The notes under the pieces are model-generated. The model worked only from the letters and a program-made list of their open reading frames with translations, had not been told where the DNA came from and did not search any database. From a virus (lineage: Duplodnaviria; Caudoviricetes): 64,000 bases of DNA. Position 1 is the stretch's first letter; every line of letters starts with the position of its first letter. The stretch lies in the IMG/VR virus record IMGVR_UViG_3300042997_000575, positions 1,993 to 65,992 of that record; one strand, 5' to 3'. This document shows positions 3 through 50,511 of this stretch, piece by piece. The translations under genes were made by a program, and so were the position numbers.

Positions 3-2366
3 CCAACAGGGGTAGTTGCTTTCTCTTCAGCTACTAACTATTGTTATACTATATTAGGGGAGTCAGTTGCACCTGCAATTGATGAAGTTAACTCGCTTGT
101 GGATTCATGTTTTGAAATTCAATGCGAAAGTCCAGATATACCTTCTACTACAACTACAACTACTCTGCCTCCATACAATTATTATGCAGCAGAACCATGT
201 GGCGGTGGAGAAGTAATTAGTATTAGAACTACATCAACTATAACTTTAGGTAAAGTAGTTCAAATAGCAGGATTTTGTCATACAATAATTGCTATAACAG
301 GAGTTAATCCTAATGATTTAATTGATACAACTGAGTATATAGATTGTTTTGATTGCGGATATATTCCCCCATCAACTACAACTACTACTACTGAGGCTCC
401 ATATTATTACTTTAATGCAACAACATGTTATGATGGGACACCTGTTGTAGTTCAAAGTTTAACAAATTATGTTCTTGATACAGTTGCTTATTCATCATTT
501 ACAAATCTTTGTTACACAATAGGTTCAGCGGCTGTTGGCCCTGCAATTGATGAGGTCAACTCAACAGTTGATAATTGTTTTAATGTAATATGCGGTAGCC
601 CTTCCCCACCTACTACTACTACCACAACCACTGCTTCATTGCAATGGTATCAATTAACTAAATGTTCAGATAGTAGTATAGACTACTCAGCAGGTTATGC
701 AGCTGGATATGCTTCAATAAATTCTCGTGTTACTGACTTTGGCTCTAATCCTTGGATAGTTACTAATATATATTCTTCAGATCAAGGTGGATCAGGGTTA
801 TTTATATTTAACACTGGTTTTACAGGATGTCCTGAAATTACTACTACTACAAGTACGACTACTTTTCAACCTATTTGGTATGAGGTAACTAATTGTCAAG
901 ATGGCACTATACTTAATTCAATTAGTTATCCAGCTTTAACTTTTGATTTTGGTCAAAGAGTTACTATATCGGGTGTTAATTATGTAGTAACAGATTTTTA
1001 TGTAGCTAACCCTGGAGGAATTTTATATCCAATTGTTCAAACAGGATTGATAGGATGCCCTACTACAACGACTACAACGAGTGCTCCTACAACGACTACT
1101 ACAACTGTAGCTCCTGCGACAACTACAACAACACAAGCACCTGCTACTACAACTACTCAAGGGCCAACTACTACTACAACTAGTACAACAACTCTTCAGA
1201 CAGTTTGGTATCAACTTGCTCGTTGTTCTGATGGGGGAGTTGTTAATTCAATTGGATATACCATTGGTTCATTTAGTATTGGAAATAGGGTGACAATAAG
1301 TGGAATAACATATGTAATTATAGATTTCTTTACTAACAATCCGGGTGGAACTCAGTATACACTTACTTCTACAGGATTGACAGGATGTCCTCCTAACACT
1401 ACTACAACAACTACATGTAATCCTACTGCTAATTGGCAGTTTAATGGTAGTTACAATTGTTATGGAACATGTAATAAATATCAAGTAGAGCAGGATCAAA
1501 ACCCTTGTTCTCCAACATATAACCAAACTCGCCAAGGCTCAGTAGTAGAATTTAATTCTACATTCTGTGGAGGATGTTGTGGTCAATCTACAGCGGCAAA
1601 CTGGACTAATGAAGGTGGTGCATATTGCGACAACTGTGTATCTAAGCAATTACAACGTGATACTAATCCATGTAGTGGTTCATACAATCAAACTAGAGTT
1701 ATAAATAGCGGTACTGCATGTAACTACACAGCTAACTGGGTTAACTCAGGTTCTTACGATTGCTATGGTACATGTAATAAATATAACATTGAAGTAGATA
1801 ATAACCAATGTTCATCAACATATAACCAAACTAGACAAGGATCTTTAGTAGAAAGTAACTCTACATTCTGCGGAGGATGTTGCGGCCAAGGCACAGGAGC
1901 TAATTGGGTAGATAATGGAAGCACATTCTGTTCAGATTGTAATTTATATCAACCACAAATAGATAATAATCCTTGTTCGTTTACTTATGGAGACACAAGA
2001 AATGTAGACTTAGGTGTTAGCACAGCTTGCGGAACTTGGGTTCAATCTTTCTACTGTGTAGGATATGACAAGTGGTCTAAAGAAACTAATTCTTGTACAG
2101 GAAATATACGTAATGAATTTTTAGTAGAAGTTAATAGTGCTTATTGTGGATATGTTCCGCCTCCAACTTGTAGAACATACCAAATAGTAGGGGATAATGC
2201 AGATGAGTCTGTAAATGGAGTTTACACCAATTGTGCTGGAGGTAGTGATAGCTTCTCATTCTTTGGTGGACCAGGTACAGTAGGATATATATGTGCTCAA
2301 ATATCAACTGTTTATGTTACAAGTGGTAATGGATATGCTACAGATACAGGTAGTAGCTGTACGTAA
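3..2366 (+). CDS. Modular Thr-rich / Cys-rich virion (decoration or fibre) protein, 5'-truncated by the window
   Basis: Frame is open from base 3 (PTGVVAFSSATNYCYTILGESVAPAIDEVNSLVDSC...), so the GTG at 99 is not the true start. Repeated domains (three copies of WYxxxxCxDxxxxxS...TGxxGCP) are joined by poly-Thr linkers, followed by Cys-rich ANWxxxG...NPCSxxYxxTR repeats. Structural-gene context. Confidence 0.8.
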   Translation, partial: PTGVVAFSSATNYCYTILGESVAPAIDEVNSLVDSCFEIQCESPDIPSTTTTTTLPPYNYYAAEPCGGGEVISIRTTSTITLGKVVQIAGFCHTIIAITGVNPNDLIDTTEYIDCFDCGYIPPSTTTTTTEAPYYYFNATTCYDGTPVVVQSLTNYVLDTVAYSSFTNLCYTIGSAAVGPAIDEVNSTVDNCFNVICGSPSPPTTTTTTTASLQWYQLTKCSDSSIDYSAGYAAGYASINSRVTDFGSNPWIVTNIYSSDQGGSGLFIFNTGFTGCPEITTTTSTTTFQPIWYEVTNCQDGTILNSISYPALTFDFGQRVTISGVNYVVTDFYVANPGGILYPIVQTGLIGCPTTTTTTSAPTTTTTTVAPATTTTTQAPATTTTQGPTTTTTSTTTLQTVWYQLARCSDGGVVNSIGYTIGSFSIGNRVTISGITYVIIDFFTNNPGGTQYTLTSTGLTGCPPNTTTTTTCNPTANWQFNGSYNCYGTCNKYQVEQDQNPCSPTYNQTRQGSVVEFNSTFCGGCCGQSTAANWTNEGGAYCDNCVSKQLQRDTNPCSGSYNQTRVINSGTACNYTANWVNSGSYDCYGTCNKYNIEVDNNQCSSTYNQTRQGSLVESNSTFCGGCCGQGTGANWVDNGSTFCSDCNLYQPQIDNNPCSFTYGDTRNVDLGVSTACGTWVQSFYCVGYDKWSKETNSCTGNIRNEFLVEVNSAYCGYVPPPTCRTYQIVGDNADESVNGVYTNCAGGSDSFSFFGGPGTVGYICAQISTVYVTSGNGYATDTGSSCT

Positions 2367-2381
2367 TTAAAATTTAATGAA

Positions 2382-3314
2382 ATGAATTTAAGATTTGTGT
2401 GTGCACAACCTGCTATAATTTATTATGCATGGCAGGTAGAGGTTATGATAAATAACTTCATGAAGAATGGTATTAACCCAAATAACATTGATATAGTTTG
2501 CTCTAAGCCTGATGGCATTGTGCCTGAGGAGTGGAGCAAACTAGCTAATAAGTATGCAGCAAGATTCTTTTTTTACGATGACCTGCGTGCGACCAAAGGA
2601 TATATATCTTCTATACGTCCTAATATTTTAAAGCAACATTTTGCCAAATATCCCGAACTTGAAAAAGAAGCAATTTTTTATCATGATTGTGATATTGTTT
2701 TTACTAAACCCATTGATTGGATTTATCAATATCTAGATGGGAATGAGTGGTACGGATCAGATACCCGTTGGTATATTGCACATTCTTACATTGAATCAAA
2801 AGGCAGAGATGTAATTGAACAGATGTGTAAGATTGCTAACATTGATGAGCAACTTGTCAAAGACAATGAGATGAACTCCATCGGAGCTCAATACTTAATG
2901 AAGAATATAAACGCAAAGTATTGGGATGATGTCGAGCAACTATGCGAGAAACTATTTGTAGATATCACTCAATTAAATATTAAAAAGAAACAAGCAGACC
3001 CATCGCACCATGAGTTACAAATATGGTGTGCCGATATGTGGGCTGTATTGTGGGAAGCGTGGAAGCGTGGCTACAAAACTAATTGCGAGGATAATTTACA
3101 ATTTGGGTGGGCCACATCTGCCCCATCTGATTGGGAGAAATTCAATATATTCCATAATGCTGGAGTAACAAACTCAGGACATGGTAAATTTTATAAGGCT
3201 GAGTACATGAATAAGTTGCCTTATAATATTGCTCCCGAACCAAATAAAGAAACTGCTAGTTGGTACTATTGGAACGAAATACAAGAAACCGCTAAACACT
3301 CTTGCTTAATATAG
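2382..3314 (+). CDS. GT-A fold glycosyltransferase, resembles plant HPAT/SGT1-type protein O-glycosyltransferases
   Basis: DxD motif (YHDCDIVF), plus YYAWQ, YISSIRP and WCADMW motifs in the same order as recalled SGT1/HPAT motifs (YFDWQ, YPAINKP, DAD, WISEMY). Confidence 0.65.
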   Translation: MNLRFVCAQPAIIYYAWQVEVMINNFMKNGINPNNIDIVCSKPDGIVPEEWSKLANKYAARFFFYDDLRATKGYISSIRPNILKQHFAKYPELEKEAIFYHDCDIVFTKPIDWIYQYLDGNEWYGSDTRWYIAHSYIESKGRDVIEQMCKIANIDEQLVKDNEMNSIGAQYLMKNINAKYWDDVEQLCEKLFVDITQLNIKKKQADPSHHELQIWCADMWAVLWEAWKRGYKTNCEDNLQFGWATSAPSDWEKFNIFHNAGVTNSGHGKFYKAEYMNKLPYNIAPEPNKETASWYYWNEIQETAKHSCLI

Positions 3315-4307
3315 ATGATAAAAATAATAGAAGCTGATTGGGGTGGGCTTGATGTATCTTCAGTTGTCAGGGATAAATTTTTAATTAATAATAAAATTCA
3401 CCTATGTGCAACCAATGATTATTTTACCGATCCAAAACCATTTCATACAAAAGAACTTAAATTAGTTTTTGAATATAATGGGGAGGTTATTGAAGAAATA
3501 GTAAATGAAAATGCTACATTTGAATTTCCTTTCCCAAAATATAAAATAGATAATGCACTTATACTTACCTCATGTAACAGAGTTGAGCAAATATGTTTAG
3601 CCTTATCTGTAAATAGTAGAATAATTAACCATCCATTTACACTTATAGTTGTTGATAGTTCAACTCCTCATTTAGATGCTAATGGTGCAATTATGATGCA
3701 CAGGGGTGACGATCCATACAACTTAATTAATGACAAAAATTATAATCCAAATTGGAAACTTATAGAAGAGCATATTAAAACCTTGCCTAACATAAAAGAA
3801 TATAGGGTTATACATCAATCTCCTCGTCAAGAGAAACAAGTAGGGGAGGCTGAGCTGATGAGCCTAGGCATTACATCTGCATCAATGTTAGGATGCAAAT
3901 ATGGCATTAAACTTACCGGAGTATGTCACCTTAAACGGAACCCATTTGACGATAAACTAGGAGATGAATCTGTGTATACTTGGGAAAGAACAATGAGCGA
4001 ACAAAAGAGTACGAGAGTTGTAATGTTCCGACCAGAAGAATTTGGTTCTTTATTAGTGAATAAAGGATGGAAGGAGTGGGTATACACCTACGATTTTATT
4101 GAAAAAAAATTAGATAAAATAGTAAATAAATATTTACCGACTAATAAAATATCTCATTTTAATTTAAAAGAAAAAGATATTATAGTTGACGAAGGAGTAG
4201 GTAGGCATGACCATAGAGAAATCATAACTAATAATTTAATTAAACACAATCTATTAGATTGTAACGATAAATATATTCAATCATTTTTACAAGGAAACAT
4301 ATGGTAA
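3315..4307 (+). CDS. Putative glycosyltransferase-like protein with N-terminal DUF3395/lectin-like domain
   Basis: N-terminus IIEADWGGLDVS...NDYFTDPKPFHTKELKLVF resembles the A-x-YG...FGDPxPGxxKxL domain. It is followed by a GT-A-like start (LILTSCNR...LIVVDSS). Flanked by glycosyltransferase genes. Confidence 0.5.
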   Translation: MIKIIEADWGGLDVSSVVRDKFLINNKIHLCATNDYFTDPKPFHTKELKLVFEYNGEVIEEIVNENATFEFPFPKYKIDNALILTSCNRVEQICLALSVNSRIINHPFTLIVVDSSTPHLDANGAIMMHRGDDPYNLINDKNYNPNWKLIEEHIKTLPNIKEYRVIHQSPRQEKQVGEAELMSLGITSASMLGCKYGIKLTGVCHLKRNPFDDKLGDESVYTWERTMSEQKSTRVVMFRPEEFGSLLVNKGWKEWVYTYDFIEKKLDKIVNKYLPTNKISHFNLKEKDIIVDEGVGRHDHREIITNNLIKHNLLDCNDKYIQSFLQGNIW

Positions 4308-5104
4308 AGAAAGTAAGTTTTGTATGCACGACATACAGACGGTTTACATGCTTAAAAAGAATTTTAGCACAATTTAATGCCCAATCATACCCTAATAAAG
4401 AACTTATTATTTTTAATACAGATGAGGAATATCCATATGTATTAGAGTATCCACAAGATAATGTCATTGTTGTAAACAATGGTATTGATTATCAAACAGG
4501 TGAGCCATATTTAAATAGAGGTTTTATTTGTAGAGATGCAGTTACTCATGCTACAGGAGATTACTTTATGCTTGCAGATGACGATGACATATATTTGCCT
4601 TGGCATATTAAACAGGCAGTAGAAGGTATTGAAGAGATAGGCAAAGATGCTTGGAAACCTGAGCAATCTTTCTTTGCTACGCAAAACAAACTTGAGTTAA
4701 CTATGAATACCTTAGAAGCATCTGTCATCGTAAAGATGCCTCGCATAAGACAGATTGGGTTCCGTAGTGACATCACAGGATACGAAGGATTAAGTTGGTA
4801 TACTAAGTTAAGAGATGAGGGCAACTTAAACGAACACAATAAAAATTATGTCCCATCATATTGTTTTAATTGGGGAGACCCACATGAGGTAGCTGGCCAC
4901 AAGCAAAGCGGTAATATAAACTCTCCAACTAATTTTGATGAACATAAAGAAGCATCAAGAGACGTGGCAAATGCTCCATTGGTTGCATTATCTATTGAAG
5001 AATTAAGCAATGTGTATGCTAAATATTTTGAATGGCTTAAATCTAATCTTTCTGTTATAAATCAAGATTATTATAATAGATATGTTGTAGGTTATAATTT
5101 TTAG
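4301..5104 (+). CDS. Glycosyltransferase family 2
   Basis: VSFVCTTYRR...AQSYPNKELIIFN...ATGDYFMLADDDDIY is the classic GT2 pattern. Confidence 0.9.
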   Translation: MVKKVSFVCTTYRRFTCLKRILAQFNAQSYPNKELIIFNTDEEYPYVLEYPQDNVIVVNNGIDYQTGEPYLNRGFICRDAVTHATGDYFMLADDDDIYLPWHIKQAVEGIEEIGKDAWKPEQSFFATQNKLELTMNTLEASVIVKMPRIRQIGFRSDITGYEGLSWYTKLRDEGNLNEHNKNYVPSYCFNWGDPHEVAGHKQSGNINSPTNFDEHKEASRDVANAPLVALSIEELSNVYAKYFEWLKSNLSVINQDYYNRYVVGYNF

Positions 5105-5122
5105 ATTTAAATTTATAATATG

Positions 5123-31573: not shown

Positions 31574-31681
31574 GTCGTAATTCGGCAAAAAAGTTTGCAT
31601 AAGTACATAACATTATTTTTGATTTGAATATTGTTTGGCATACAAATTGTAATTAGATTTGTAACAATAATTAAATTCAAT

Positions 31682-39553: not shown

Positions 39554-42500
39554 ATGGCCAGAATTAGTACATACCCAAATGATACCTATGTTATTGGTAT
39601 TGATAAATGGATCGGTTCCGATGCCAATAATAATAATATTACCAAGAACTTTACAGCTGATGCAGTAGCATCTTATTATAATAGAGTATCAAAGATTGAC
39701 ACAGGGTATTTCTCTTGGAATTTTGTTCCTGATTTAGCTCCTGCCGTTCAGTCATCAATGACATTTGAGAAAGTAGGCTGGACTAATAATACCATTAACT
39801 TAACAGGATTTCAAGGCGTTATTAGAGTATCTAACTTAACGCTTGCTAATACTGTACCAGGTACATTTATTGAGAACGAGTGGGTCAATAAAATTATATT
39901 AGCCCATATCCCTGAGAGTCCTAGCTTTTACGCATTTTATCAAGTAACAGCAGTAGCTCAAGATGGGTGGTTCTATTTACTGACATTGACATTTTTAGAT
40001 GGTAACAATACGGTTATCCAACAAAATGACCCTGTTGCCTTTGGTATATTCTCTGCGGTTGCAGGCACAAGTGGCACATCGGGCACATCCGGGACAAGTG
40101 GCACGACAGGCACTAGCGGTACAAGTGGCACTAGCGGTACGTCGGGCACCACAGGCACATCAGGGACTTCGGGAACAAGCGGTACGTCAGCGACAAGTGG
40201 AACGACAGGTACTTCAGGAACGAGTGGAAGCTCAGGCTCAAGTGCGACATCAGGAACGAGTGGTACAAGTGCCACATCGGGTACAAGTGGCACATCAGCT
40301 ACTAGTGGGACATCAGGTACGTCAGGCACGAGCGGTAGTTCAGGTAGTTCAGGGTCATCAGCTACATCAGGAACAAGTGGGACATCAGCGACATCAGGAA
40401 CTAGTGGAACAACAGGAACTAGTGGCACCTCAGGTACGTCAGGTACAACAGGTACAAGCGGTAGCTCAGGATTTACAGGAGATAGATATGCAACCACATC
40501 TACGACCACATTTACTTTAGGTAATGCAGGGACAATTACAGTTGGCTTAGATTTATCTTACACAGTTGCTCAATCTATTATCGTTGTTTATGATGCTAAT
40601 AACTTCCAAGAATGCGAGGTTATTGCTTATAATCCTGCAACGGGAGCATTGCAGTTTGCTGCACCAACAAGAACTGTTGGAGGTGGCACATATAGTGTTT
40701 GGTCTGTCAATCTTGATGGAGCAAGTGGAGGCGATGGCTCATCAGGTACAAGTGGGACAAGTGGTACGTCTTCTACTAGTGGAACGAGTGGGACAAGTGG
40801 TACAACAGGTACTAGTGGAACGACAGGTACTTCAGGCACAAGCGGAACGACAGGGGTAGATGGTACAAGTGGGACTAGCGGAACAGCAGGTACCACAGGT
40901 ACCTCAGGTACGACAGGTACAAGTGGAACAACTGGAACGTCAGGAACAAGTGGAACTACAGGAACAGATGGTACAAGTGGGACTAGCGGAACAGCAGGTA
41001 CTACAGGTACAAGTGGAACGAGTGGTACTTCGGGTACGACAGGGACAAGTGGTTCTTCAGGAACGACAGGTACATCAGGTACGACAGGAACCTCAGGCTC
41101 TAGTGGTACATCAGGTACGACAGGTACTAGTGGAACTAGCGGTACAAGTGGATCAGATGGCACAAGTGGAAGTAGTGGTATAGATGGAACTTCGGGTACA
41201 AATGGAACTAGTGGTACGTCAGGTACAACTGGAACTAGTGGAACTAGTGGAGCAGATGGGAACTCAAAAGGTCAGATTTATTATTTTAATCAATCTCAAA
41301 GTTCAGATGTAAGTCCATATAAGGTTTTATCAATAAATCCATCGGGTGCTGCTCAACAGACTGTGTCTAATGCGTTAGGTTCAAATCAGCAGAATAAATT
41401 AGTTAGTTCATTTTTAACTCCTGCGTTAGGCTTTGCGGTTATTCCTGCTGGTGTACAAACATTCCATAATCATTTTTTAAAGCAGGCATCAAACGACCAC
41501 ATACAAGTATATGTAACTATCGAGCTTGCTAACTCAGCAGGCGTAGGGTATGGTACGATATTGGCAACCAATACTGCTGAGATTGGATGGGTAAGTGCAT
41601 CAATTCCTGTAGAGACAACTACAGATTTAGTTTTGCCAACGACAACAATCCTGACAACTGATAGGATGATTGTTAAGATATATGTTAATAATAATGATAG
41701 CACAAGTCATACTGTCAATTGGTATACTGAGGGCGTGTCTTATTATTCATATGCAATTACATCCATTGCTCCTTCAGCAGGGACAAGTGGTACTAGTGGT
41801 ACATCAGGTACTTCAGGTGCTCAGGGTACAAGTGGGGCAAGTGGTAGTTCAGGTACTTCGGGTACGTCAGGTGCTCAAGGTACAAGCGGTGCTAGTGGTA
41901 CATCAGGTACATCTGGTACGTCAGGAGCTCAGGGTACGAGTGGAGCAAGCGGATCGTCAGGTACCTCAGGTACAAGTGGACTAGCAGGCACATCAACAAG
42001 AGTTGAGCAAAACTATACAGCCACAGCAGGGCAAACGACATTTACCTTCACAGGTGGATACACAGTTGGTCTTATAGATGTATATGTCAATGGAGTTAGA
42101 TATTTGCCTACAGACTACACAGCCACTAATGGCACGACAGTAGTATTAGGCATAGGGCTATTGGCAGGAGATGCTGTGACTATATTAAACTATACGTCAA
42201 GCATTGCAGCTTTGCCAACATCAAGAAACGTGCAAGACTTTACTGCAACAGCAGCACAGACTACGTTCACAGTTACTAATGGCTACATAGTAGGACTTAT
42301 AGATGTATTTGTTAATGGTTCAAAGTTAACTTCTTCAGAGTTTACAGCTACTAATGGAACGACATTTGTTCTTACAGTAGCTTCTACAGTAGGAGACCAA
42401 GTGCAGAGCATTAACTACACAGCAAGTGTTAATGGTATAAGTGGTGCAGGGACAGCTAACTATGTGCCTAAGTTCACAGCAAGTGGTACGATTGGAAATA

Positions 42501-43330
42501 GTTCTATTTTTGATAATGGAACTAATGTGGGGATTGGTACTGGTTCGCCAAATGGAGGATTAACTGTTGTAGCACCTTCTTCTTCTACTGCTATTAGTTT
42601 ATGGGGAAGGTCTACTGATAATTATTCTGCATTAAGATTTCAAAGTAATACAGGAGCAACCACTTATTCAACTATATATTCAGATGCCTCTAATTTAATT
42701 TTTGAAAACAATGGTTCAGAACGTATGCGAATTACCTCTACTGGGAACATAGGGATTGGAACGACTGCACCTAAATCATATGGAGTATTAACTATAAGTG
42801 GACAAACTATTGGATTAAGTAATATAGCAGTAGATGTTAATCAGGCTTTTAAACTTAACAATTATTATAATAGTAGTACTGGGACAGATAAAACTATTTC
42901 AACAGGATATGCAGCACAAATGGGTTTAGATAATTCAAATGGTGGATTAACATTTTCAAATAGTTCAAGTTCAGTTACAGCAGATGGTAATATTACAACT
43001 ACTGAACGTATGCGGATTACAAGTGGGGGAAATATAGATACTAAAGGTAATCCAATTTTTGCTCATAGTGGCTCAATTACTATAAATGGGACTTATCAAA
43101 CTATCTTTACTGCTGCTTCAAATTCAGTTTATTTAGTTTCAGTTAATACAAGCATAAGTGCAGGTGATGGTACTTATGGATTATTAATTGCCTTTAATGA
43201 AGCTGATAAGGTATGTGATTTAATAAGTGGAAATAATTTATCATTACAATTTAGTGGTGATAATGTTCAAATAAGGTCAAACAATAGTGCAGGATACGCT
43301 ACTACTTGGACTGCAACTCGTTTAAAATAA
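39554..43330 (+). CDS. Fibre protein with three Gly-Thr-Ser collagen-like tracts
   Basis: (G-T/S-S/T)n at about 40064-40480, 40718-41260 and 41780-41994; two TATAxQTTF...VxVNG domains; GNVGIGT/ERMRIT fibre repeats. Upstream TATTTTTG box at 39520. Confidence 0.85.
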   Translation: MARISTYPNDTYVIGIDKWIGSDANNNNITKNFTADAVASYYNRVSKIDTGYFSWNFVPDLAPAVQSSMTFEKVGWTNNTINLTGFQGVIRVSNLTLANTVPGTFIENEWVNKIILAHIPESPSFYAFYQVTAVAQDGWFYLLTLTFLDGNNTVIQQNDPVAFGIFSAVAGTSGTSGTSGTSGTTGTSGTSGTSGTSGTTGTSGTSGTSGTSATSGTTGTSGTSGSSGSSATSGTSGTSATSGTSGTSATSGTSGTSGTSGSSGSSGSSATSGTSGTSATSGTSGTTGTSGTSGTSGTTGTSGSSGFTGDRYATTSTTTFTLGNAGTITVGLDLSYTVAQSIIVVYDANNFQECEVIAYNPATGALQFAAPTRTVGGGTYSVWSVNLDGASGGDGSSGTSGTSGTSSTSGTSGTSGTTGTSGTTGTSGTSGTTGVDGTSGTSGTAGTTGTSGTTGTSGTTGTSGTSGTTGTDGTSGTSGTAGTTGTSGTSGTSGTTGTSGSSGTTGTSGTTGTSGSSGTSGTTGTSGTSGTSGSDGTSGSSGIDGTSGTNGTSGTSGTTGTSGTSGADGNSKGQIYYFNQSQSSDVSPYKVLSINPSGAAQQTVSNALGSNQQNKLVSSFLTPALGFAVIPAGVQTFHNHFLKQASNDHIQVYVTIELANSAGVGYGTILATNTAEIGWVSASIPVETTTDLVLPTTTILTTDRMIVKIYVNNNDSTSHTVNWYTEGVSYYSYAITSIAPSAGTSGTSGTSGTSGAQGTSGASGSSGTSGTSGAQGTSGASGTSGTSGTSGAQGTSGASGSSGTSGTSGLAGTSTRVEQNYTATAGQTTFTFTGGYTVGLIDVYVNGVRYLPTDYTATNGTTVVLGIGLLAGDAVTILNYTSSIAALPTSRNVQDFTATAAQTTFTVTNGYIVGLIDVFVNGSKLTSSEFTATNGTTFVLTVASTVGDQVQSINYTASVNGISGAGTANYVPKFTASGTIGNSSIFDNGTNVGIGTGSPNGGLTVVAPSSSTAISLWGRSTDNYSALRFQSNTGATTYSTIYSDASNLIFENNGSERMRITSTGNIGIGTTAPKSYGVLTISGQTIGLSNIAVDVNQAFKLNNYYNSSTGTDKTISTGYAAQMGLDNSNGGLTFSNSSSSVTADGNITTTERMRITSGGNIDTKGNPIFAHSGSITINGTYQTIFTAASNSVYLVSVNTSISAGDGTYGLLIAFNEADKVCDLISGNNLSLQFSGDNVQIRSNNSAGYATTWTATRLK
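40064..41994 (+). repeat. 9-bp-period low-complexity tracts encoding Gly-X-Y (about 130 triplets in three blocks)
   Basis: ggN acN agt/tcN codon repeats with synonymous variation, which indicates protein-level selection. Confidence 0.9.
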
Positions 43331-45551: not shown

Positions 45552-45569
45552 ACAATAAACAATAAATAT

Positions 45570-45605: not shown

Positions 45606-45625
45606 AATAAATTAAATTTAAACTA

Positions 45626-46378
45626 ATGGCATTCGTTTATAGACATATTAGATTAGACACAAATCAACCTTTTTATATTGGGATAGGAAAGGATGAGCGT
45701 TATTATTTTAGGGCGACTAAAAAAAGCCAAAGAAATATACATTGGAAAAGAATTGTAGCTAAAACTGATTATAGGGTAGAAATACTTATGGATGATATTA
45801 CCTATGATGAAGCTAAAGAAAAGGAAATTGAATTTATAAAATTATATGGAAGGATAAATTTATCGAATGGACCTTTATGTAATATGACTGATGGAGGAGA
45901 AGGCAATTTAGGATATGTAGCTACAGAAGAAACTAGAAAAAAGTTATCTAAATCTATAAGCGAATGGAATAAAAATAGAGTAAGAAGTGAAAAAGAAATT
46001 GAATCTTTATCACAAAGAATGAAAGCATTCCAAAATGACCCTGATTTTATAAGAAAGAAAAATGAAGGATTAAGAAATAGCGAAAAGTTAAAAGCATTTA
46101 ATGCTTTAAGAAAAGGACTTCCTGGTATAAAACATACTGAGGAAACAAAATTAAAAATGTCGTTAGCAAGAATTGGTAAAAAAGTTGCAAAAGAATTTGT
46201 TGACAAAAGATCAAAAAAGATAACACAAAAAACATTGTCAGGTGAATTTATAAAAATATGGGATTCAGCAAGAGAAATTCAAAGGGAACTTGGATTATCA
46301 CAAGGCAATATATCTAGATGTTGCAATGGGGAATACAAGAAAGCTAATGGATATAAATGGGAGTATTATAAACAATAA
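45626..46378 (+). mobile_element. Free-standing GIY-YIG-like homing endonuclease with NUMOD3/NUMOD1 domains
   Basis: VYRH...FYIGIG...R...EKE...NMTDGGEG; HTEETKLKMS (NUMOD3); IWDSAREIQRELG...ISRCC...ANGYKWEY (NUMOD1). Confidence 0.85.
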
Positions 46379-46390
46379 ACATATATAAAA

Positions 46391-46810
46391 ATGAATACTA
46401 ATTATTTTTGGTCAGTTTACCAGCTTGATACAGTTCCGAGTCTCGATGGGCTTGTGGATGTGGTTATCACAGTTCACTGGGGTAGAACAGCAGTAGAAGA
46501 AATATCAACAGAAGAAAAATATACAGCCCATGTTTATGGAACAATGGGATGTCAAACTCCTTCAGAGACAGACTTTACAGCCTATCCAGACTTGACATTT
46601 GAGCAAGTATGTGGCTGGCTTGAAAATGGGCTCGACTATGAGGCTATTGATGCAGGACTACAGCAGGATATTGATAATCAAATCAATCCTCCTGTGATTG
46701 TTTTGCCATTACCATGGGTTCCTGAACCAACGACTACCACAACAACCACAATGGCTCCTCCTCCTCCTGAGCCAACAACTACTAGCACAACAACAGAAGC
46801 TCCTATTTAA
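46391..46810 (+). CDS. Tail-associated protein (DUF7936-like) with poly-Thr/Pro C-terminal tail
   Basis: VVITVHW...DFTAYPDLTFEQVCGWL; ends PEPTTTTTTTMAPPPPEPTTTSTTTEAPI. Confidence 0.65.
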   Translation: MNTNYFWSVYQLDTVPSLDGLVDVVITVHWGRTAVEEISTEEKYTAHVYGTMGCQTPSETDFTAYPDLTFEQVCGWLENGLDYEAIDAGLQQDIDNQINPPVIVLPLPWVPEPTTTTTTTMAPPPPEPTTTSTTTEAPI

Positions 46811-46871
46811 TTAGGAGTTTTAAATGTTTTTAGTAATTTTGTGTTTGTTAAACATTTAAATCAACTAAACA

Positions 46872-47267
46872 ATGAAAAAGTATCGTGATCTGTTAGGGTT
46901 AGTACATTATATTAACCAGTCAATAGAACAAGGCAAGACCATAGGTCAAAAGAAATTAGTCAAGATAGGTGACTTATTAAAGCCACATATTGATGCTTAC
47001 AACGACAAGAGAGATTGGATTTTATTATCTAACGCTAGTGTAGATGATGACAAGAATCTTATTGTTGATGAAAAGGGTGGATATAAATATACACCTGAAG
47101 GAGCACACAAGAGAGACAAAGAACTAATGGAATTGTTCATGTCTGACTTTGACTACACTCAAATTCAAATTAACTCACCATCTGAACTTGACCAATATAC
47201 ATTCTTGTATGGATGGGTGAATGGTGTGAATTTTATTATTGAAGAAGAGGAAGAGGTAGAACTTTAA
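46872..47267 (+). CDS. Hypothetical protein (possible fibre assembly chaperone)
   Basis: 131 aa after the fibre genes; TAATTTTG box at 46834. Confidence 0.6.
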   Translation: MKKYRDLLGLVHYINQSIEQGKTIGQKKLVKIGDLLKPHIDAYNDKRDWILLSNASVDDDKNLIVDEKGGYKYTPEGAHKRDKELMELFMSDFDYTQIQINSPSELDQYTFLYGWVNGVNFIIEEEEEVEL

Positions 47268-50103
47268 TTACATCCTCAGCTGTGATACTCCTTTGACATT
47301 CAAATTGTCGAGGAGTATTTTTATTAAATGGGCACCAATCGAAATCCCCTTTATCAAATTTTAACGCAGGGTCGTTCCAACAGCCGTGGCATACATTCTC
47401 GTTAACTACACGTATACAATTGAACTCATGTGCACGTGTAGTAAAGTTACTTATCATCACCACAGGTTTACCAATAGCCCACGCTAACCATGAAATTCCT
47501 GAGCTAAGTCCGATAAAAAACTGACTATGGTAGATAACGCTCATAGTATTCTCAATGTCGATGTCATCTATCTTCTGGCAATGCTCAAATGGGTTATCTT
47601 CTTTACTGACATTCACCACCTTGTAGCCTTTGTTATGCAAGTAAGTTATAACCTCTTGCCATCCATCTCTTGTCCAAAACTTACAGCCTGCTGTTGAGTT
47701 AGTAGCTATCGTCACATACTGCCCATACTTATTCTTACGCTTTCTAAACTTTAAGTTTGGCCTAAGCTCTTCAAACTCTAAGCCTAATATATTAGTGGCC
47801 GCCTCTTGTAGCTTTATCGTATTAGGTAGCACAGGTTCTTTATTCTCATCGTAGTGCCACCCGATATTATACTGAGCATAAATATTATTGACCACCATGC
47901 CAGGCTCGACTAGTTCTATCTCAGGGATGTCAAGTATATGGTTCCAAAATGTGGAGAGTATTACTTTGCAGTTATGTTTCTTTTGAAATGCAAGTGCATA
48001 TGGTGCCCATGCGATGGTGTCGCCTAGTGACTTACTAGCCAAGGTGATGAACACTCTTCTGTTTTCTAATGATAACTTATACTCGTAGACTAATTCATTA
48101 TACTCAAATACTTTAATGGTCCAGTCAGTATAGTACTCCCTATTTAGTCTCACCCATGAGTTAGAGTTAATAGTATTCTCATAATGACATACATTATTCT
48201 CGTCAAAGTATTGCACCTTAAACTTAGAGTTGACAGGCGACTTAATCTCTAGAAATGGTTGCTCAATAAAGTATTTATATATGTGCACATCTTGGTCTTC
48301 TTTTTTATTCTGCAAGATGGTCTTATAGAAGCCCATGTACTCAATTCCAAAATAATAGGTTGAACTTAACTCAGGTATATTATAATTAGCTGTAATAGTA
48401 TTTAGGTCTGTATCAATCGGTTGGATGTATTTATCATATCTTGAGCGATAAACGGGTAAGTTGTGAGCGATAATTGGTAAGCCATAAGATATAGCCTCTC
48501 TAAGAACTAATGGGTTGCACTCCCATGTACTATTGAACATAAATATGTTAGCATGCTTTAAGAACTCGTCCACGTCATCCCTCTCTCCCCACACCTTGAC
48601 ATTACTTGGTAGGTCAGCCATTAAGGGCTCCCAATAATCTTTAAAGTTGCCTGCTTGGTTGCCCACAAAATTAAAATTAAAGTTAGGGTTAGCACGGGCA
48701 ATCTCTATCCCCTCGGCTTGGTTCTTGCCGGGTGTCCATAGTCCCACGTTGACCACATTATTTATGCCCGGAAGTTTCTTTGATTCCTTTTGGTCAATAG
48801 GGTACTCAATGACTTGCTTGTAAGATGGCAGGTGAGCGAAGGTATCAAAGTGGTAAGACGTGCAGAAAGCATACCCATCAGGGTGATATAACTTAGTCTT
48901 AGGATCAAATGAGACATCATGACAAGTCTCAACAATCTTGTAAAGTCTATTAGGTTTATAGAGTTCGCTCATTACATCTGCATCGAACCGCTCGGATGGT
49001 TCGTGAATGTGAATTAAATCTGGTTTGAATTTATTAATTACATCAAACAGCTCCATTTTATTCTCATACAGAGTTGTGAAGTTTGTGCCAACAATATCTT
49101 TTATTTTATTTCTTTGTACCACATAGTCTAGGCTGTAGCAATTGTACTCAACCACATAAGGTGTAATCTTATCCCCTAAAGCCTCTAGCGTTTTTAATAC
49201 AAAGGCAGGCATGCCCCCTGTTGATAGGTGAGGAACTAGGTATAATACTTTATTGGGCCTGATCATTTTTAGCATCTCATCTTTTCTTTTCTCTCCATGG
49301 TAGAATAGTAACTTGTCCTCGCTTGCAGGCACCCTACCCCAATCACCTATCATGTAGTCTTGGCCAGTAAAAATATTATTATGGTCAATCAAGTTGACTA
49401 AATCTAAATTTGCGTTCATATAAATATATGGTAAGCCCTTTTGAATATTATACTTCCATAATAGCACGTTGGCTATGGTCTCCTCATTATAGGCTGCGTA
49501 ATAACTATTGTCAGCCATCACCTGTGGGTGCGTGCACATCTGATACCACTCATCTAAGAAGTCAATGCAGTTTTTATTAGCGACAAAGTAGCCTGTCTGC
49601 CTGTAGCGTTCTCTAACATATTGGTCCACACCAAATAGCTCGCAAGCCGGGTGCTCAAGTGTTGTGCTTAGGTCATCCCTGCTCTCAGCTCCCCCCCTGT
49701 CTCCTACGTGCAAGTAGTCATATATGCCCTCCACAAAATATGGGTGGCTTGACTCATCATCAAACATATTAAATATAGTATGTGCATACTTTGTAGCTAC
49801 AGAGTCTGAGTCAATGTAGGCCACCGTGTAAGCAAATTTGTTTATAGCATCCTTGACAATAAGTGGGCGTTGAATTAAAAGTTTATAGATATTAATATCT
49901 GATCGGTCAATGAATCTATTTTGCTTAGTCTCTGCCACATCGCAGTCCCATCTAATGGTAAAGGTTGCACCCTTAATCTGCCTGTCTGAGTTTAGCATAT
50001 ATACTAGAGTTGGAATGCTAGTATAATAATTTAATGACTCTACACACGCCTCAACAGTATCAGCATATGACTCATTTGCATATAGAACGAATGCTTGCTT
50101 CAT
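47236..50103 (-). CDS. Three-domain glycosyltransferase: GT-A + GT4 + TibC/AAH-type heptosyltransferase
   Basis: N-terminal DxD (YIDSD). Middle HLSTGG...KNQ...ECNPLVLREA GT4. C-terminal beta domain (YYTDWTIKV), SLGDTIAW, FIGLSSGISWLAWA...VVMISNF and CHGC...WCP...FEC four-Cys site. Confidence 0.85.
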   Translation of the reverse strand: MKQAFVLYANESYADTVEACVESLNYYTSIPTLVYMLNSDRQIKGATFTIRWDCDVAETKQNRFIDRSDINIYKLLIQRPLIVKDAINKFAYTVAYIDSDSVATKYAHTIFNMFDDESSHPYFVEGIYDYLHVGDRGGAESRDDLSTTLEHPACELFGVDQYVRERYRQTGYFVANKNCIDFLDEWYQMCTHPQVMADNSYYAAYNEETIANVLLWKYNIQKGLPYIYMNANLDLVNLIDHNNIFTGQDYMIGDWGRVPASEDKLLFYHGEKRKDEMLKMIRPNKVLYLVPHLSTGGMPAFVLKTLEALGDKITPYVVEYNCYSLDYVVQRNKIKDIVGTNFTTLYENKMELFDVINKFKPDLIHIHEPSERFDADVMSELYKPNRLYKIVETCHDVSFDPKTKLYHPDGYAFCTSYHFDTFAHLPSYKQVIEYPIDQKESKKLPGINNVVNVGLWTPGKNQAEGIEIARANPNFNFNFVGNQAGNFKDYWEPLMADLPSNVKVWGERDDVDEFLKHANIFMFNSTWECNPLVLREAISYGLPIIAHNLPVYRSRYDKYIQPIDTDLNTITANYNIPELSSTYYFGIEYMGFYKTILQNKKEDQDVHIYKYFIEQPFLEIKSPVNSKFKVQYFDENNVCHYENTINSNSWVRLNREYYTDWTIKVFEYNELVYEYKLSLENRRVFITLASKSLGDTIAWAPYALAFQKKHNCKVILSTFWNHILDIPEIELVEPGMVVNNIYAQYNIGWHYDENKEPVLPNTIKLQEAATNILGLEFEELRPNLKFRKRKNKYGQYVTIATNSTAGCKFWTRDGWQEVITYLHNKGYKVVNVSKEDNPFEHCQKIDDIDIENTMSVIYHSQFFIGLSSGISWLAWAIGKPVVMISNFTTRAHEFNCIRVVNENVCHGCWNDPALKFDKGDFDWCPFNKNTPRQFECQRSITAEDVIKVLPLPLLQ

Positions 50104-50107
50104 TGAG

Positions 50108-50115
50108 CAAAATTA
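50108..50115 (-). promoter_or_regulatory. Bacteroidota -7 box (TAATTTTG), 4 nt before ATG
   Basis: Minus strand reads TAATTTTG-CTCA-ATG; divergent from gene 50143. Confidence 0.6.
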
Positions 50116-50142
50116 ATTAATATTGCATCAAATACAAATAAA

Positions 50143-50511
50143 ATGACAATAGAAGTTAGTATTGGAGAAGCTCTTGACAAACTGTCGATACTTAGCATTA
50201 AGATGGACAAGATAAAAGACCAAACAAAGCTTGAAAATATTTCCAAAGAATATTTTAGATTGATTCACCCAATAGATGAACGTATGTTGATTGACCCTTT
50301 ATATAAAGCTTTAAAATCAATAAATGAAAAGTTGTGGGATATCGAAGATGATATAAGAGTATGTGAAAGACACGGGGATTTTAATTTAAATTTTATTAGA
50401 TTAGCACGTATGGTTTATCAAAATAATGATAGAAGAGCCGCTCTAAAGAAAGAAATAAACATTAAATACAACTCAGAATTTATGGAAGAAAAATCTTATA
50501 ATAATAATTAG
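50143..50511 (+). CDS. DUF6165-like protein
   Basis: SIGEALDKLSILSIK...NEKLWDIED...LARMVYQNNDRR..LKKEIN...EEKSY. Confidence 0.75.
   Translation: MTIEVSIGEALDKLSILSIKMDKIKDQTKLENISKEYFRLIHPIDERMLIDPLYKALKSINEKLWDIEDDIRVCERHGDFNLNFIRLARMVYQNNDRRAALKKEINIKYNSEFMEEKSYNNN

What the first reader, a model, noticed from the sequence alone, without database searches (positions are those of the whole stretch)
3..50511. Candidate phage-encoded protein O-glycosylation system that glycosylates its own virion
Seen: about six glycosyltransferase domains in two loci (2382-5104; 47236-50103 plus the DUF6165-like gene), both embedded in structural-gene regions. Each lies beside Ser/Thr-dense virion proteins: the poly-Thr modular protein (3-2366), the Gly-Thr-Ser fibre (39554-43330) and the poly-Thr-tailed protein (46391-46810). 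Established: TibC/AAH enzymes O-heptosylate Ser in autotransporters, SGT1/HPAT enzymes O-glycosylate Ser/Hyp, and mycobacteriophage GTs are known to glycosylate virion proteins. Inference: initiating and elongating GTs build a glycan coat on mucin-like and collagen-like virion appendages, for stability, receptor mimicry or shielding. No nucleotide-sugar synthesis genes were seen, so host donors would be used.
Basis: partly seen in the sequence, partly recalled or inferred. Interest (0 to 1): 0.9.

Follow-up and report, generated by a model that had tools for sequence, protein, structure and literature searches.

The report
Phage enzymes likely sugar-coating its appendages
A 66-kb uncultured aquatic phage carries two sets of sugar-transferring enzymes next to threonine-rich and collagen-like tail proteins. 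The same enzyme-plus-target pairs recur in hundreds of other phages, some of them culturable, so the phage very probably sugar-coats its own particle, although nobody has measured a sugar.

Summary
The window is almost a whole circular ~65.8-kb podophage related to Flavobacterium, Cellulophaga and Maribacter phages.

Locus 1 (2382-5104) encodes three GT-A glycosyltransferases. They sit directly after a 2231-aa muzzle-like tail protein whose C-terminal modules are joined by poly-Thr linkers.

Locus 2 (47236-50103, minus strand) encodes a 955-aa fusion. It has a probable GT8-like domain, a GT4 domain and a genuine TibC/Aah-family domain. That domain scores 262.7 bits on TIGR04414 (cut-off 200) and keeps the catalytic Asp and the four iron-finger Cys. 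The locus lies beside a proline-free Gly-Thr/Ser-Ser collagen-like fibre and a DUF7936 protein with a poly-Thr tail.

- 28 of 39 lineages of the first enzyme have an abutting poly-S/T protein, against 7 of 991 control ORFs.
- 14 of 20 TibC lineages have an S/T-collagen gene, median 0.8 kb away, against 0 of 117 random loci.
- Relatives without the enzymes carry the same modules without poly-Thr linkers.
- Cultured phages (Lactococcus 1706, Lactobacillus iLp84, Enterococcus phiFL1A, Microcystis Mel-JY01) show the same pairings.

No glycan has been measured, and the donor sugar and the proposed plant SGT1/HPAT kinship remain unverified. This scan has noted the same modules before on other DNA. 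I class it as a new variant of the known mycobacteriophage virion glycosylation.

The parts
61516..64000 (+). N-terminal part of a 2231-aa muzzle-like tail or virion structural protein. The ORF continues across the circular junction into window 3-2366. The stop at 63990 lies in an artefactual inverted copy at the contig end.
   Evidence: phrog_14478 'virion structural protein' at 1.6e-132. Junction and frame reconstruction.
3..2366 (+). C-terminal part of the same tail protein. Small Cys-containing modules are joined by poly-Thr linkers (11 S/T runs here, 19 in the whole protein). Candidate O-glycan acceptor.
   Evidence: Translation and run coordinates. Relatives without GTs carry homologous modules joined without poly-Thr.
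2382..3314 (+). GTA1: soluble GT-A, GT8-like retaining-type glycosyltransferase (phrog_4417) with an invariant H-D-x-D motif. Candidate initiating poly-Thr O-glycosyltransferase.
   Evidence: for family and fold. Synteny with poly-S/T ORFs.
3315..4307 (+). GTA2: N-terminal beta domain (about 75 aa) plus a GT-A glycosyltransferase domain. Candidate elongating enzyme.
   Evidence: AF2 pLDDT 90.6. Foldseek and VIA matches to GT-A enzymes, Z about 14 over residues 77-319. The same GTA1-GTA2-GT2 cassette occurs in L193.
4301..5104 (+). GT2-family (inverting GT-A) glycosyltransferase. Candidate elongating enzyme.
   Evidence: PF00535 at 1.5e-7, over the cut-off. Co-occurs with GTA1 in 13 of 80 loci.
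39554..43330 (+). 1258-aa tail fibre with proline-free Gly-Thr/Ser-Ser collagen-like blocks at 40064-40486, 40781-41266 and 41780-41995. Candidate acceptor of the TibC-like enzyme.
   Evidence: Pfam Collagen 1.3e-44, tail-fibre PHROGs, block statistics.
46391..46810 (+). DUF7936 protein with a C-terminal poly-Thr tail (about the last 30 residues). Candidate acceptor.
   Evidence: PF25590 at 5e-24. The poly-Thr tail is present in 6 of 13 homologues with GTs nearby and 0 of 8 without.
49204..50103 (-). N-terminal domain (aa 1-300) of the 955-aa fusion. Probable GT8-like GT-A with a Y-I-D-S-D motif.
   Evidence: Atlas look-alikes include GT8 and Nucleotid_trans clusters. Two homologues carry PF01501, and many are fused to methyltransferases. 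hhalign to the GTA1 family gives E 9e-4 across the DxD region.
48304..49203 (-). Middle GT4 (GT-B, retaining) domain of the fusion, about aa 300-600.
   Evidence: PF00534 at 1.9e-11, PF13692 at 1.5e-9, phrog_2170.
47236..48228 (-). C-terminal TibC/Aah-family (BAHT) protein O-glycosyltransferase domain, aa 626-955, with the catalytic Asp695 and a four-Cys iron finger.
   Evidence: TIGR04414 262.7 bits against cut-off 200, PDB 4rap 2.9e-52, residue conservation in 67 phage homologues.
50143..50511 (+). DUF6165/DUF4254-like small protein, a recurrent divergent neighbour of the fusion gene. Role unknown.
   Evidence: PF19662 at 4e-13. A mostly viral family. Next to the fusion in 17 of 21 loci.

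Best explanation
The phage encodes two cytoplasmic protein O-glycosylation modules that decorate its own tail appendages before or during assembly, using host nucleotide sugars.

Module 1: a GT8-like retaining GT-A enzyme (2382-3314) puts the first sugar on the Thr runs that link the small modules at the C-terminus of the muzzle-like tail protein. It probably also acts on the poly-Thr tail of the DUF7936 protein. The next two GT-A enzymes (3315-4307 and 4301-5104) extend the glycan.

Module 2: the TibC/Aah-type domain of the 955-aa fusion O-glycosylates Ser/Thr in the proline-free Gly-Thr/Ser-Ser collagen-like blocks of the tail fibre. The fused GT4 and GT8-like domains extend that glycan. DUF6165 is an accessory of unknown role.

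Shown here: the enzyme folds and families, conservation of the catalytic residues, lack of membrane segments, and the comparative coupling of each enzyme family to its acceptor type.

Inferred: that sugars are actually attached, which enzyme initiates, which sugar is used, and the benefit (stiff, protease-resistant linkers and a stabilised Pro-free triple helix).
For: 1. The enzyme family is right.
- The TibC-like domain passes the curated equivalog cut-off of TIGR04414, 'autotransporter strand-loop-strand O-heptosyltransferase' (262.7 against 200). LPS heptosyltransferase models score 26 bits or less.
- Asp-110, Thr-226, Lys-230, Trp-305 and Cys-339/342/358/370 of TibC (roles from eLife PMC4358343) are kept here and in 66-67 of 67 phage homologues.

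2. TibC pairs with collagen.
- 31 of 61 viral loci with a TibC-like domain hold an S/T-rich collagen ORF. That is 14 of 20 lineages at 70% identity.
- The median gap is 0.8 kb, and Pro makes up 0.1% of repeat residues.
- The control is 0 of 117 random viral loci (974 kb), Fisher p 8e-15.
- Among TerL relatives with at least 8 kb of upstream flank, 5 of 5 TibC-positive loci have S/T collagen and 0 of 23 TibC-negative loci do.

3. GTA1 pairs with poly-Thr.
- 28 of 39 lineages have a co-oriented ORF ending within 400 nt upstream that carries two or more S/T runs of at least 5 residues. The control is 7 of 991 ORFs, p 2e-39.
- In the reverse direction, 9 of 72 random poly-Thr ORF loci have a GTA1 homologue, and it always abuts the poly-Thr ORF. 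The control is 0 of 117.

4. There is a natural control.
- Relatives L005-L009 lack the GT cassette and carry homologous tail-protein modules joined without poly-Thr.
- L194, L003/4 and L010-12 have the GTs and have Thr-rich linkers or a separate poly-Thr ORF. No case is discordant.

5. Cultured phages with a GTA1 homologue carry poly-Thr tags on major capsid or tail proteins. These are Lactococcus 1706, Lactobacillus iLp84, Staphylococcus SA2, Clostridium phiCTP1, Enterococcus phiFL1A and Chryseobacterium MA9V-3. Microcystis phage Mel-JY01 has a GTS collagen ORF 1.7 kb from its TibC-like fusion.

6. The setting fits.
- The acceptors are virion proteins by homology.
- The GTs have no TM or signal segment.
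- No genes for DNA hypermodification or nucleotide-sugar synthesis were found.
Against: - There is no experimental evidence of glycans on any of these proteins.
- Arg-286, one of four TibC sugar-binding residues, is Thr here, and the thumb hairpin that TibC needs to form its dodecamer is shortened. Donor and quaternary structure may therefore differ.
- Characterised TibC/Aah enzymes act on beta-helical autotransporters, not on collagen.
- Within this phage family the TibC/collagen pairing reflects only two independent gains or losses.
- Controls are random viral loci, not matched tail-fibre regions.
- Most poly-Thr ORF loci (63 of 72) show no GTA1 homologue in the short flank available.
- 6 of 20 TibC lineages show no S/T collagen within 10 kb.
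- The literature usually reads GTs in phage fibre islands as O-antigen modifiers (PMC7029224).
Confidence: 0.7

Rival explanations
1. The glycosyltransferases modify host cell-surface glycans (LPS core, O-antigen or capsule) during infection, to block superinfection or prevent progeny from re-adsorbing. They sit in tail-fibre regions only because those are hypervariable cargo islands.
For: This is the usual reading of GTs in phage fibre islands (PMC7029224; PMC10202952). Both cassettes are accessory insertions that the closest relative MW202828.1 lacks. GT2, GT4, GT8 and GT9 families are typical of LPS synthesis.
Against: The GT9-like domain belongs to the protein-specific TibC/Aah equivalog, not to the LPS heptosyltransferases. 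The enzymes are soluble. Enzyme presence tracks an intragenic feature of neighbouring virion proteins, namely poly-Thr linkers, C-terminal poly-Thr tags and Pro-free S/T collagen, across phages of Bacteroidota, Firmicutes and cyanobacteria whose envelopes differ.
Confidence: 0.1
2. Enzymes and Ser/Thr-rich proteins travel together as a recombination cassette with no enzyme-substrate relation. The S/T tracts would be plain flexible linkers, or a collagen that needs no sugar, or substrates of host enzymes. The GTs would have another target, for example another phage protein or a small molecule.
For: Poly-Thr ORFs mostly occur without a detectable GTA1 homologue (63 of 72). GTS collagen-like fibres are common PHROG families. 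Only two independent transitions occur within this family.
Against: Co-inheritance holds across enzyme sequences as divergent as 30-36% identity and across unrelated genome backbones. Gene order is conserved and the genes abut, which argues for selection on the pair. Poly-Thr appears inside otherwise homologous modules only when GTs are present.
Confidence: 0.15
3. The enzymes glycosylate phage DNA (hydroxymethyl-base glucosylation) to evade restriction.
For: This is a known role of some phage GT-A and GT-B enzymes (reviewed in the references cited in PMC12619734).
Against: No hydroxymethylase or other base-hypermodification gene appears among 33 early or replication ORFs. The genes lie in late structural modules. 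TibC-family membership and the acceptor coupling are unexplained by DNA modification.
Confidence: 0.02

Closest known systems
TibC-TibA and Aah-AIDA-I of E. coli (bacterial autotransporter heptosyltransferases, BAHT; TIGR04414; PDB 4RAP/4RB4)
   Same: The C-terminal domain of the 955-aa protein is a sequence-level family member. It keeps the catalytic Asp, three of four sugar-binding residues and the four-Cys iron finger. It is a soluble cytoplasmic enzyme that hyperglycosylates Ser in a repetitive surface protein encoded next door.
   Different: It is encoded by a phage and fused to GT4 and GT8-like domains. Arg-286 is Thr and the thumb hairpin is shortened. The likely acceptor is a Pro-free Gly-S/T-S/T collagen-like tail fibre rather than a beta-helical autotransporter. 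The donor sugar is unknown.
Mycobacteriophage virion glycosylation (Che8 and others; Freeman et al. 2023, Cell Host Microbe, PMID 37329881, as described in PMC12619734 and PMC11256854; the original paper was not readable here)
   Same: Phage-encoded GTs in the structural module modify the phage's own virion proteins. In Firmicute phages carrying a GTA1 homologue, the poly-Thr tags sit at the C-termini of capsid and tail-tube proteins, which are the sites glycosylated in mycobacteriophages.
   Different: The enzyme families differ (a GT8-like phrog_4417 family and a TibC-like family). The acceptor signatures are explicit (poly-Thr runs, S/T collagen). In this phage the targets are tail appendages, not capsid or tube. 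The hosts are different phyla. No glycan has yet been shown.
GT8 retaining GT-A enzymes that act on proteins or protein-bound glycans: glycogenin, Skp1 alpha-galactosyltransferase, GlyE of the pneumococcal serine-rich repeat protein PsrP
   Same: GTA1 shares the fold (Z 15.3, 14.5 and 13.5) and a DxD motif. Several of these enzymes glycosylate proteins in the cytoplasm.
   Different: There is no detectable sequence similarity (no PF01501 hit). The acceptor would be poly-Thr.
O-glycosylated collagen-like proteins: Bacillus anthracis BclA (Gly-Pro-Thr repeats) and Riftia cuticle collagen (galactosylated Thr). Cited from my own knowledge, not checked here.
   Same: Thr in Gly-X-Y repeats carries O-glycans that stabilise or decorate the triple helix.
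   Different: The glycosyltransferases are unrelated and those systems are cellular. Here the repeats have no Pro at all.
Plant peptidyl-Ser alpha-galactosyltransferase SGT1 (GT96) and Hyp O-arabinosyltransferases HPAT (GT95)
   Same: Both add the first sugar to hydroxyl-rich repeats.
   Different: Kinship could not be tested: no model or structure is in the libraries, and Pfam finds nothing for GTA1 at E up to 5. GT96 has been predicted to have a non-GT-A fold (PMC8476585), whereas GTA1 is clearly GT-A.

Membership tests
BAHT / TibC-Aah O-heptosyltransferases (TIGR04414) | Scores above the curated equivalog cut-off of the family model | tested here: met
   262.7 bits against cut-off 200, residues 626-948. 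LPS heptosyltransferase I/II/III models score 26 bits or less. PDB TibC 2.9e-52.
BAHT / TibC-Aah O-heptosyltransferases (TIGR04414) | Catalytic base Asp-110 | tested here: met
   Asp695 aligns to it, and the column is D in 67 of 67 phage homologues. Role taken from PMC4358343.
BAHT / TibC-Aah O-heptosyltransferases (TIGR04414) | Sugar-binding residues Thr-226, Lys-230, Trp-305 | tested here: met
   T804, K808 and W872 here. Conserved in 66, 67 and 66 of 67 homologues.
BAHT / TibC-Aah O-heptosyltransferases (TIGR04414) | Sugar-binding residue Arg-286 | tested here: not met
   Thr853 here. The column is T in 50, R in 6, L in 6, V in 4 and K in 1 of 67.
BAHT / TibC-Aah O-heptosyltransferases (TIGR04414) | Iron-finger Cys-339, Cys-342, Cys-358, Cys-370 | tested here: met
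   C905, C908, C924 and C936 here. Each is C in 66 of 67 homologues. Iron binding itself was not tested.
BAHT / TibC-Aah O-heptosyltransferases (TIGR04414) | Beta-hairpin thumb (Phe-265/Val-266) that mediates the dodecamer ring | tested here: inconclusive
   The HMMER alignment shows about 10 residues missing around TibC 261-280. The domain was not folded.
BAHT / TibC-Aah O-heptosyltransferases (TIGR04414) | Acceptor is the beta-helical passenger of an adjacent autotransporter | tested here: not met
   No autotransporter appeared in any ORF scanned. The recurrent neighbour is an S/T collagen-like fibre.
BAHT / TibC-Aah O-heptosyltransferases (TIGR04414) | Donor is ADP-heptose | not testable with these tools
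   Only 2 of 24 phage records with a TibC-like gene hold an rfaE_dom_II-like gene, and both score below the cut-off. This phage has none.
GT8 (retaining GT-A; glycogenin, LgtC), for ORF 2382-3314 | GT-A fold closest to GT8 structures | tested here: met
   Model pLDDT 91.8. Glycogenin Z 15.3 (223 aligned, rmsd 3.4) and LgtC Z 14.7.
GT8 (retaining GT-A; glycogenin, LgtC), for ORF 2382-3314 | DxD metal/nucleotide-sugar motif | tested here: met
   H101, D102 and D104 are invariant in the 24-sequence alignment A1.
GT8 (retaining GT-A; glycogenin, LgtC), for ORF 2382-3314 | Matches the family sequence model PF01501 | tested here: not met
   No PF01501 hit at E up to 5, no NCBIfam hit and no PDB sequence hit.
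Plant GT95/GT96 peptide O-glycosyltransferases (HPAT, SGT1) | Sequence or fold kinship with HPAT or SGT1 | not testable with these tools
No family model or solved structure is available here. The fold-prediction literature is ambiguous.
Phage-encoded virion glycosylation (mycobacteriophage type) | GT genes embedded in the structural module next to the modified virion proteins | tested here: met
   Gene maps. Abutting arrangement in relatives and in cultured phages.
Phage-encoded virion glycosylation (mycobacteriophage type) | Glycans demonstrated on virion proteins | not testable with these tools
   Needs mass spectrometry or glycan staining of virions.
Collagen triple-helix repeat proteins (PF01391) | Uninterrupted Gly-X-Y repeats that match the family model | tested here: met
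   1.3e-44 over 6 stretches. Blocks of 14, 10, 54 and 24 triplets with no Pro in the repeats.

The most novel reading that the evidence does not exclude
Tailed phages of several bacterial phyla share two modular 'glyco-tag' systems that published work has not recognised.

1. A GT8-like enzyme family (phrog_4417) marks poly-Thr tags. These occur as linkers in tail appendages of aquatic Bacteroidota phages and as C-terminal tags on major capsid and tail-tube proteins of Lactococcus, Lactobacillus, Enterococcus, Staphylococcus and Clostridium phages.

2. A phage clade of the TibC/Aah adhesin-glycosylating family has been re-targeted to proline-free Gly-Ser/Thr-Ser/Thr collagen-like fibres, possibly making sugar-stabilised triple helices.

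If so, virion glycosylation would be widespread rather than a mycobacteriophage peculiarity.
Probability: 0.6. Interest if true: 0.85.

Novelty: new variant of a known kind. Interest (0 to 1): 0.78.

Why it matters
Published evidence for sugar-coated phage particles rests almost entirely on mycobacteriophages. GTs in the fibre islands of aquatic phages are routinely annotated as O-antigen modifiers.

If these two enzyme/acceptor pairs work as proposed, several things follow:
- Virion glycosylation would be common across phage and host phyla.
- It would be predictable from sequence: a poly-Thr tag next to a phrog_4417 enzyme, or an S/T collagen next to a TibC-like enzyme.
- It would bear on particle stability, host recognition, immune recognition of therapeutic phages, and glyco-engineering with short genetically encoded tags.
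- The TibC family would gain a second kind of substrate.
- It would explain how proline-free collagen-like fibres could be stable.

Several carriers are cultured phages of laboratory or dairy bacteria, so the question can be tested directly.

Tried and rejected
- **Sequence searches of ORFs 2382-3314 and 3315-4307.** Pfam at E up to 5, NCBIfam and PDB by sequence gave nothing. Only structure prediction resolved them.
- **N-terminal domain of the 955-aa fusion.** A single-sequence hhalign to the GTA1 and GTA2 families was not significant. A profile against PDB gave nothing. The profile-profile match to GTA1 is weak (E 9e-4, probability 23%).
- **GTA1 against GTA2.** No detectable relationship.
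- **Heptose pathway genes as a donor clue.** Only 2 of 24 TibC-carrying phage records have an rfaE_dom_II-like gene, both below the cut-off. The residue at the Arg-286 position does not track them. This is uninformative.
- **Phylogenetically independent contrasts within the TerL family.** Only two transitions, both concordant, which is too few for a test.
- **Literature.** The Freeman et al. 2023 paper could not be read. Searches for TibC-like enzymes with phage collagen, poly-threonine tags on phage tail proteins, DUF6165, DUF7936 or DUF4254 found no prior description.
- **DNA-glycosylation reading.** Rejected, because no hypermodification genes were found.
- **GNAT gene 5911-6318.** Considered as part of the cassette and rejected. 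It is conserved next to the muzzle C-terminal-domain gene (MUZC, 5150-5893) in relatives with and without GTs.

Full report
**What the window is.** The window is positions 1993-65992 of a single 65,992-bp contig. The first bases of that contig recur at its end, so the genome is circular or terminally redundant at about 65.8 kb.
- Terminase, portal and capsid genes place it among podophages related to Flavobacterium 'elemo', Cellulophaga and Maribacter phages. One protein has a crAss muzzle C-terminal domain.
- The closest record is MW202828.1, Caudoviricetes sp. from Manatee Spring.
- The last ~24 bases of the contig are an inverted copy of preceding sequence, which creates a false stop at 63990.
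- Read round the circle, ORF 61516... and ORF ...2366 form one 2231-aa protein. Its N-terminus matches phrog_14478, 'virion structural protein'. The 'poly-Thr modular protein' is therefore the C-terminal third of a tail (muzzle-like) structural protein.

**Checking the observation: the enzymes.**
- ORF 4301-5104 is GT2.
- ORFs 2382-3314 (here GTA1) and 3315-4307 (GTA2) have no Pfam, NCBIfam or PDB sequence hit, but both belong to sizeable metagenomic families (2526 and 54 homologues).
- AlphaFold models built from these alignments are confident (pLDDT 91.8 and 90.6).
- GTA1 is a GT-A enzyme closest to GT8 retaining transferases:
  - glycogenin Z 15.3 (223 aligned, rmsd 3.4)
  - LgtC Z 14.7
  - Skp1 alpha-galactosyltransferase Z 14.5
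  - pneumococcal GlyE Z 13.5
- GTA1 also has an invariant H-D-x-D motif.
- GTA2 has a ~75-aa beta domain followed by a generic GT-A domain. Z is about 14 to WrtF, GtrB and GlyE, and 13.0 to the chlorovirus capsid-glycosylating A64R.
- The 955-aa minus-strand protein has a GT4 domain and a C-terminal domain that passes the curated equivalog threshold of TIGR04414, the Aah/TibC protein O-heptosyltransferases (262.7 against 200 bits). That domain matches TibC structures at 2.9e-52.
- Its N-terminal 300 residues are probably GT8-like. They carry a Y-I-D-S-D motif, some homologues carry PF01501, and hhalign to the GTA1 family gives E 9e-4.
- ORF 50143-50511 is DUF6165.
- None of these proteins has a hydrophobic segment typical of a membrane anchor or signal peptide.

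**Checking the observation: the Ser/Thr-rich proteins**.
- The tail protein has 19 S/T runs.
- The fibre has at least 102 Gly-X-Y triplets with no proline in the repeats, and 77-100% of X/Y positions are S or T.
- DUF7936 has a poly-Thr tail.
- S/T runs occur nowhere else in the phage.

**Is the TibC-like domain functional?** The eLife structure paper (PMC4358343) defines the key residues. Asp-110 is the catalytic base. Thr-226, Lys-230, Arg-286 and Trp-305 bind sugar. Cys-339, 342, 358 and 370 form the iron finger. A thumb hairpin is needed for the dodecamer.
- In the HMMER alignment and in 67 non-identical phage homologues, the Asp, Thr, Lys, Trp and all four Cys are invariant or nearly so.
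- Arg-286 is Thr here and in 50 of 67 homologues.
- The thumb region is about 10 residues shorter.
- The catalytic machinery is under selection, but the donor sugar and the oligomeric state may differ from TibC.

**Both cassettes are accessory.**
- In MW202828.1 a 183-aa 'glycosidase' gene occupies the place of the three GT-A genes. Nothing resembling the 955-aa fusion, DUF6165, DUF7936 or a collagen fibre lies upstream of its terminase.

**The co-occurrence test: the TibC-like domain.**
- A scan of IMG/VR found 61 loci on contigs of 4-321 kb, at 35-97% identity.
- 31 of them hold an ORF with at least 60 residues of S/T-rich Gly-X-Y repeat, some with up to about 2500 residues.
- After clustering, 19 of 31 lineages at 90% identity and 14 of 20 at 70% have one.
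- The median distance to the TibC ORF is 0.8 kb, and Pro makes up 0.1% of repeat residues.
- As a base rate I fetched 117 random viral loci (974 kb) with an arbitrary 15-mer. None has such an ORF (0 of 991 ORFs; Fisher p 8e-15).
- Among relatives found through the terminase, with at least 8 kb of upstream flank, 5 of 5 TibC-positive loci have S/T collagen and 0 of 23 TibC-negative loci do.
- On a TerL tree this amounts to only two independent changes, both concordant.

**The co-occurrence test: GTA1.**
- 401 IMG/VR loci encode a homologue, and the best 80 were fetched. They show two recurrent arrangements.
- In the first, one or two ORFs full of S/T runs (some runs up to 65 residues) end 10-100 bp before GTA1 on the same strand, often followed by GTA2 and/or GT2. 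L193 has the identical three-gene cassette.
- In the second, the order is collagen fibre, DUF7936 with poly-Thr tail, the fusion gene on the opposite strand, DUF6165, then GTA1.
- 28 of 39 lineages have the abutting poly-S/T ORF, against 7 of 991 control ORFs.
- In the reverse direction I searched for DNA encoding nine Thr codons in a row. Of 72 random viral loci with a T8-or-longer ORF, 9 have a GTA1 homologue, each directly abutting the poly-Thr ORF. None of 117 random loci does.

**A natural control.** In the same phage family, loci that cover the interval from the muzzle gene to the gene for the muzzle C-terminal-domain protein (MUZC, window 5150-5893) split cleanly.
- This phage, L194, L003/4 and L010-12 have GTA1 (with or without GT2 and GTA2). 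They also have Thr-rich linkers or a separate 883-aa ORF with Thr runs of up to 24.
- L001, L005-L009 and L013/14 have no GT and no Thr linkers.
- L005 and L006 carry homologous 'WY..C...TGLTGCP' modules at the tail-protein C-terminus, joined directly without poly-Thr.
- Similarly, the poly-Thr tail of DUF7936 is present in 6 of 13 homologues with GTs nearby and 0 of 8 without. This includes near-identical proteins that differ only in the tail.

**Cultured phages.** GTA1 homologues at about 30-36% identity occur in 77 isolate genomes. In every one I opened, the homologue sits beside poly-Thr-tagged structural proteins.

| Phage | Poly-Thr feature next to the GTA1 homologue |
|---|---|
| Lactococcus phage 1706 | Capsid/protease and major structural protein both end in T9-10-HHD |
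| Lactobacillus phage iLp84 | Major head and major tail proteins end in T7-SK, plus a 126-aa protein with five Thr runs |
| Staphylococcus phage SA2 | Major tail protein ends in S-T8-P |
| Clostridium phage phiCTP1 | ORF18 has a Thr tail |
| Enterococcus phage phiFL1A | Major tail protein gp50 has a 21-residue Thr/Ser tail abutting gp51 |
| Chryseobacterium phage MA9V-3 | Proteins with 21- and 41-residue runs lie upstream |

- Papers that cite Freeman et al. 2023 (PMC12619734) report glycans at the C-termini of capsid and tail-tube subunits in mycobacteriophages. These tags sit at the same positions.
- For the TibC pairing, Microcystis phage Mel-JY01 carries a collagen ORF of at least 1016 aa made of GTS/GSS repeats. 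GenBank annotates it on the wrong strand. It lies 1.7 kb upstream of a 1227-aa methyltransferase...TibC-like fusion.

**Mechanism I commit to, about 70%.** There are two cytoplasmic O-glycosylation modules using host nucleotide sugars.
- GTA1 initiates on poly-Thr, and GTA2 and GT2 extend.
- The TibC-like domain initiates on Ser/Thr of the Pro-free collagen repeats, and the fused GT4 and GT8-like domains extend.
- Homologues of the N-terminal domain are often fused to SAM methyltransferases, which suggests methylated sugars in other phages.
- The likely benefits are stiff, protease-resistant linkers and a stabilised triple helix. These are inferences.
- No nucleotide-sugar synthesis or DNA-hypermodification genes were found.

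**Rivals.**
- Host-glycan modification (0.10) is the textbook reading. It does not explain TibC-family membership, or why enzyme presence tracks an intragenic feature of neighbouring virion proteins across phages of hosts with very different envelopes.
- Cassette hitch-hiking without an enzyme-substrate relation (0.15) is weakened by conserved abutting gene order across 30-36% identical enzymes and unrelated genome backbones.
- DNA glycosylation (0.02) has no support.

**Caveats.**
- Nothing here is experimental.
- The controls are random loci rather than matched fibre regions.
- Within-family independence is low.
- Six of 20 TibC lineages, and most poly-Thr loci, lack the partner within the flank available.
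- The donor sugar is unknown. Arg-286 is replaced, and heptose-pathway genes occur in only 2 of 24 records, both below the cut-off.
- The SGT1/HPAT kinship is untested.

**Novelty.**
- I found no paper that describes TibC-like enzymes with phage collagen fibres, phrog_4417 enzymes with poly-Thr tags, or any function for DUF6165 or DUF7936.
- The general phenomenon, phage-encoded virion glycosylation, is known from mycobacteriophages. I therefore class this as a new variant of a known kind.
- This scan has already noted the same two modules in other genomes. My tests were run independently on this window and agree with those notes.

Noticed in passing
window 63853-64000 and contig start (G000:C1:1-148): The contig's first ~124 bases recur at its end, so the assembly is circular or terminally redundant at about 65,845 bp. 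The last ~24 bases are an inverted copy of preceding sequence. That assembly artefact creates a false stop at 63990 and splits a 2231-aa tail-protein ORF.
   Followed up: yes
L361:2-3049 (Microcystis phage Mel-JY01, PP395634.1): GenBank annotates two minus-strand 'hypothetical proteins' with PEVP-type repeats here. The plus strand is one open frame of at least 1016 aa of Gly-Thr/Ser-Ser collagen-like repeats plus fibre domains, so the deposited annotation is probably on the wrong strand.
   Followed up: partly
window 45626-46378: An HNH/NUMOD homing endonuclease sits between the fibre genes and the DUF7936 gene. Homologues occur at varying positions in related loci (for example L196, L197, L201 and L221), so it looks like a mobile element within this variable region.
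   Followed up: no
proteins P0182-P0297: Stand-alone homologues of the fusion's N-terminal domain are mostly about 450 aa and fused to SAM-dependent methyltransferase domains (PF13489, PF08241, PF05050). This hints that glycans in related phages carry O-methyl sugars.
   Followed up: no
L356:3117-3930 (Staphylococcus phage SA2): An 88-aa ORF that is 44% Thr overlaps the 3' end of the major tail protein gene in another frame. It may be a frameshift extension that adds a long poly-Thr tail to a fraction of tail-tube subunits.
   Followed up: no
window 5911-6318: A small GNAT-like acetyltransferase (weak PF13420 match, phrog_17252) is conserved next to the gene for the muzzle C-terminal-domain protein (MUZC, window 5150-5893) in relatives with and without the GT cassette. 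It is not part of the glycosylation module, and its target is unknown.
   Followed up: partly
window 31631-33235 and neighbouring ORF: The phage encodes its own GroEL-like (Cpn60, 3.6e-58) and GroES-like (Cpn10) chaperonins, as does its relative MW202828.1.
   Followed up: no
L001:16438-16989 (MW202828.1): In the closest relative, a 183-aa 'putative glycosidase' gene occupies the swap site between the muzzle-like gene and the gene for the muzzle C-terminal-domain protein (MUZC). In this phage that site holds the three GT genes.
   Followed up: no
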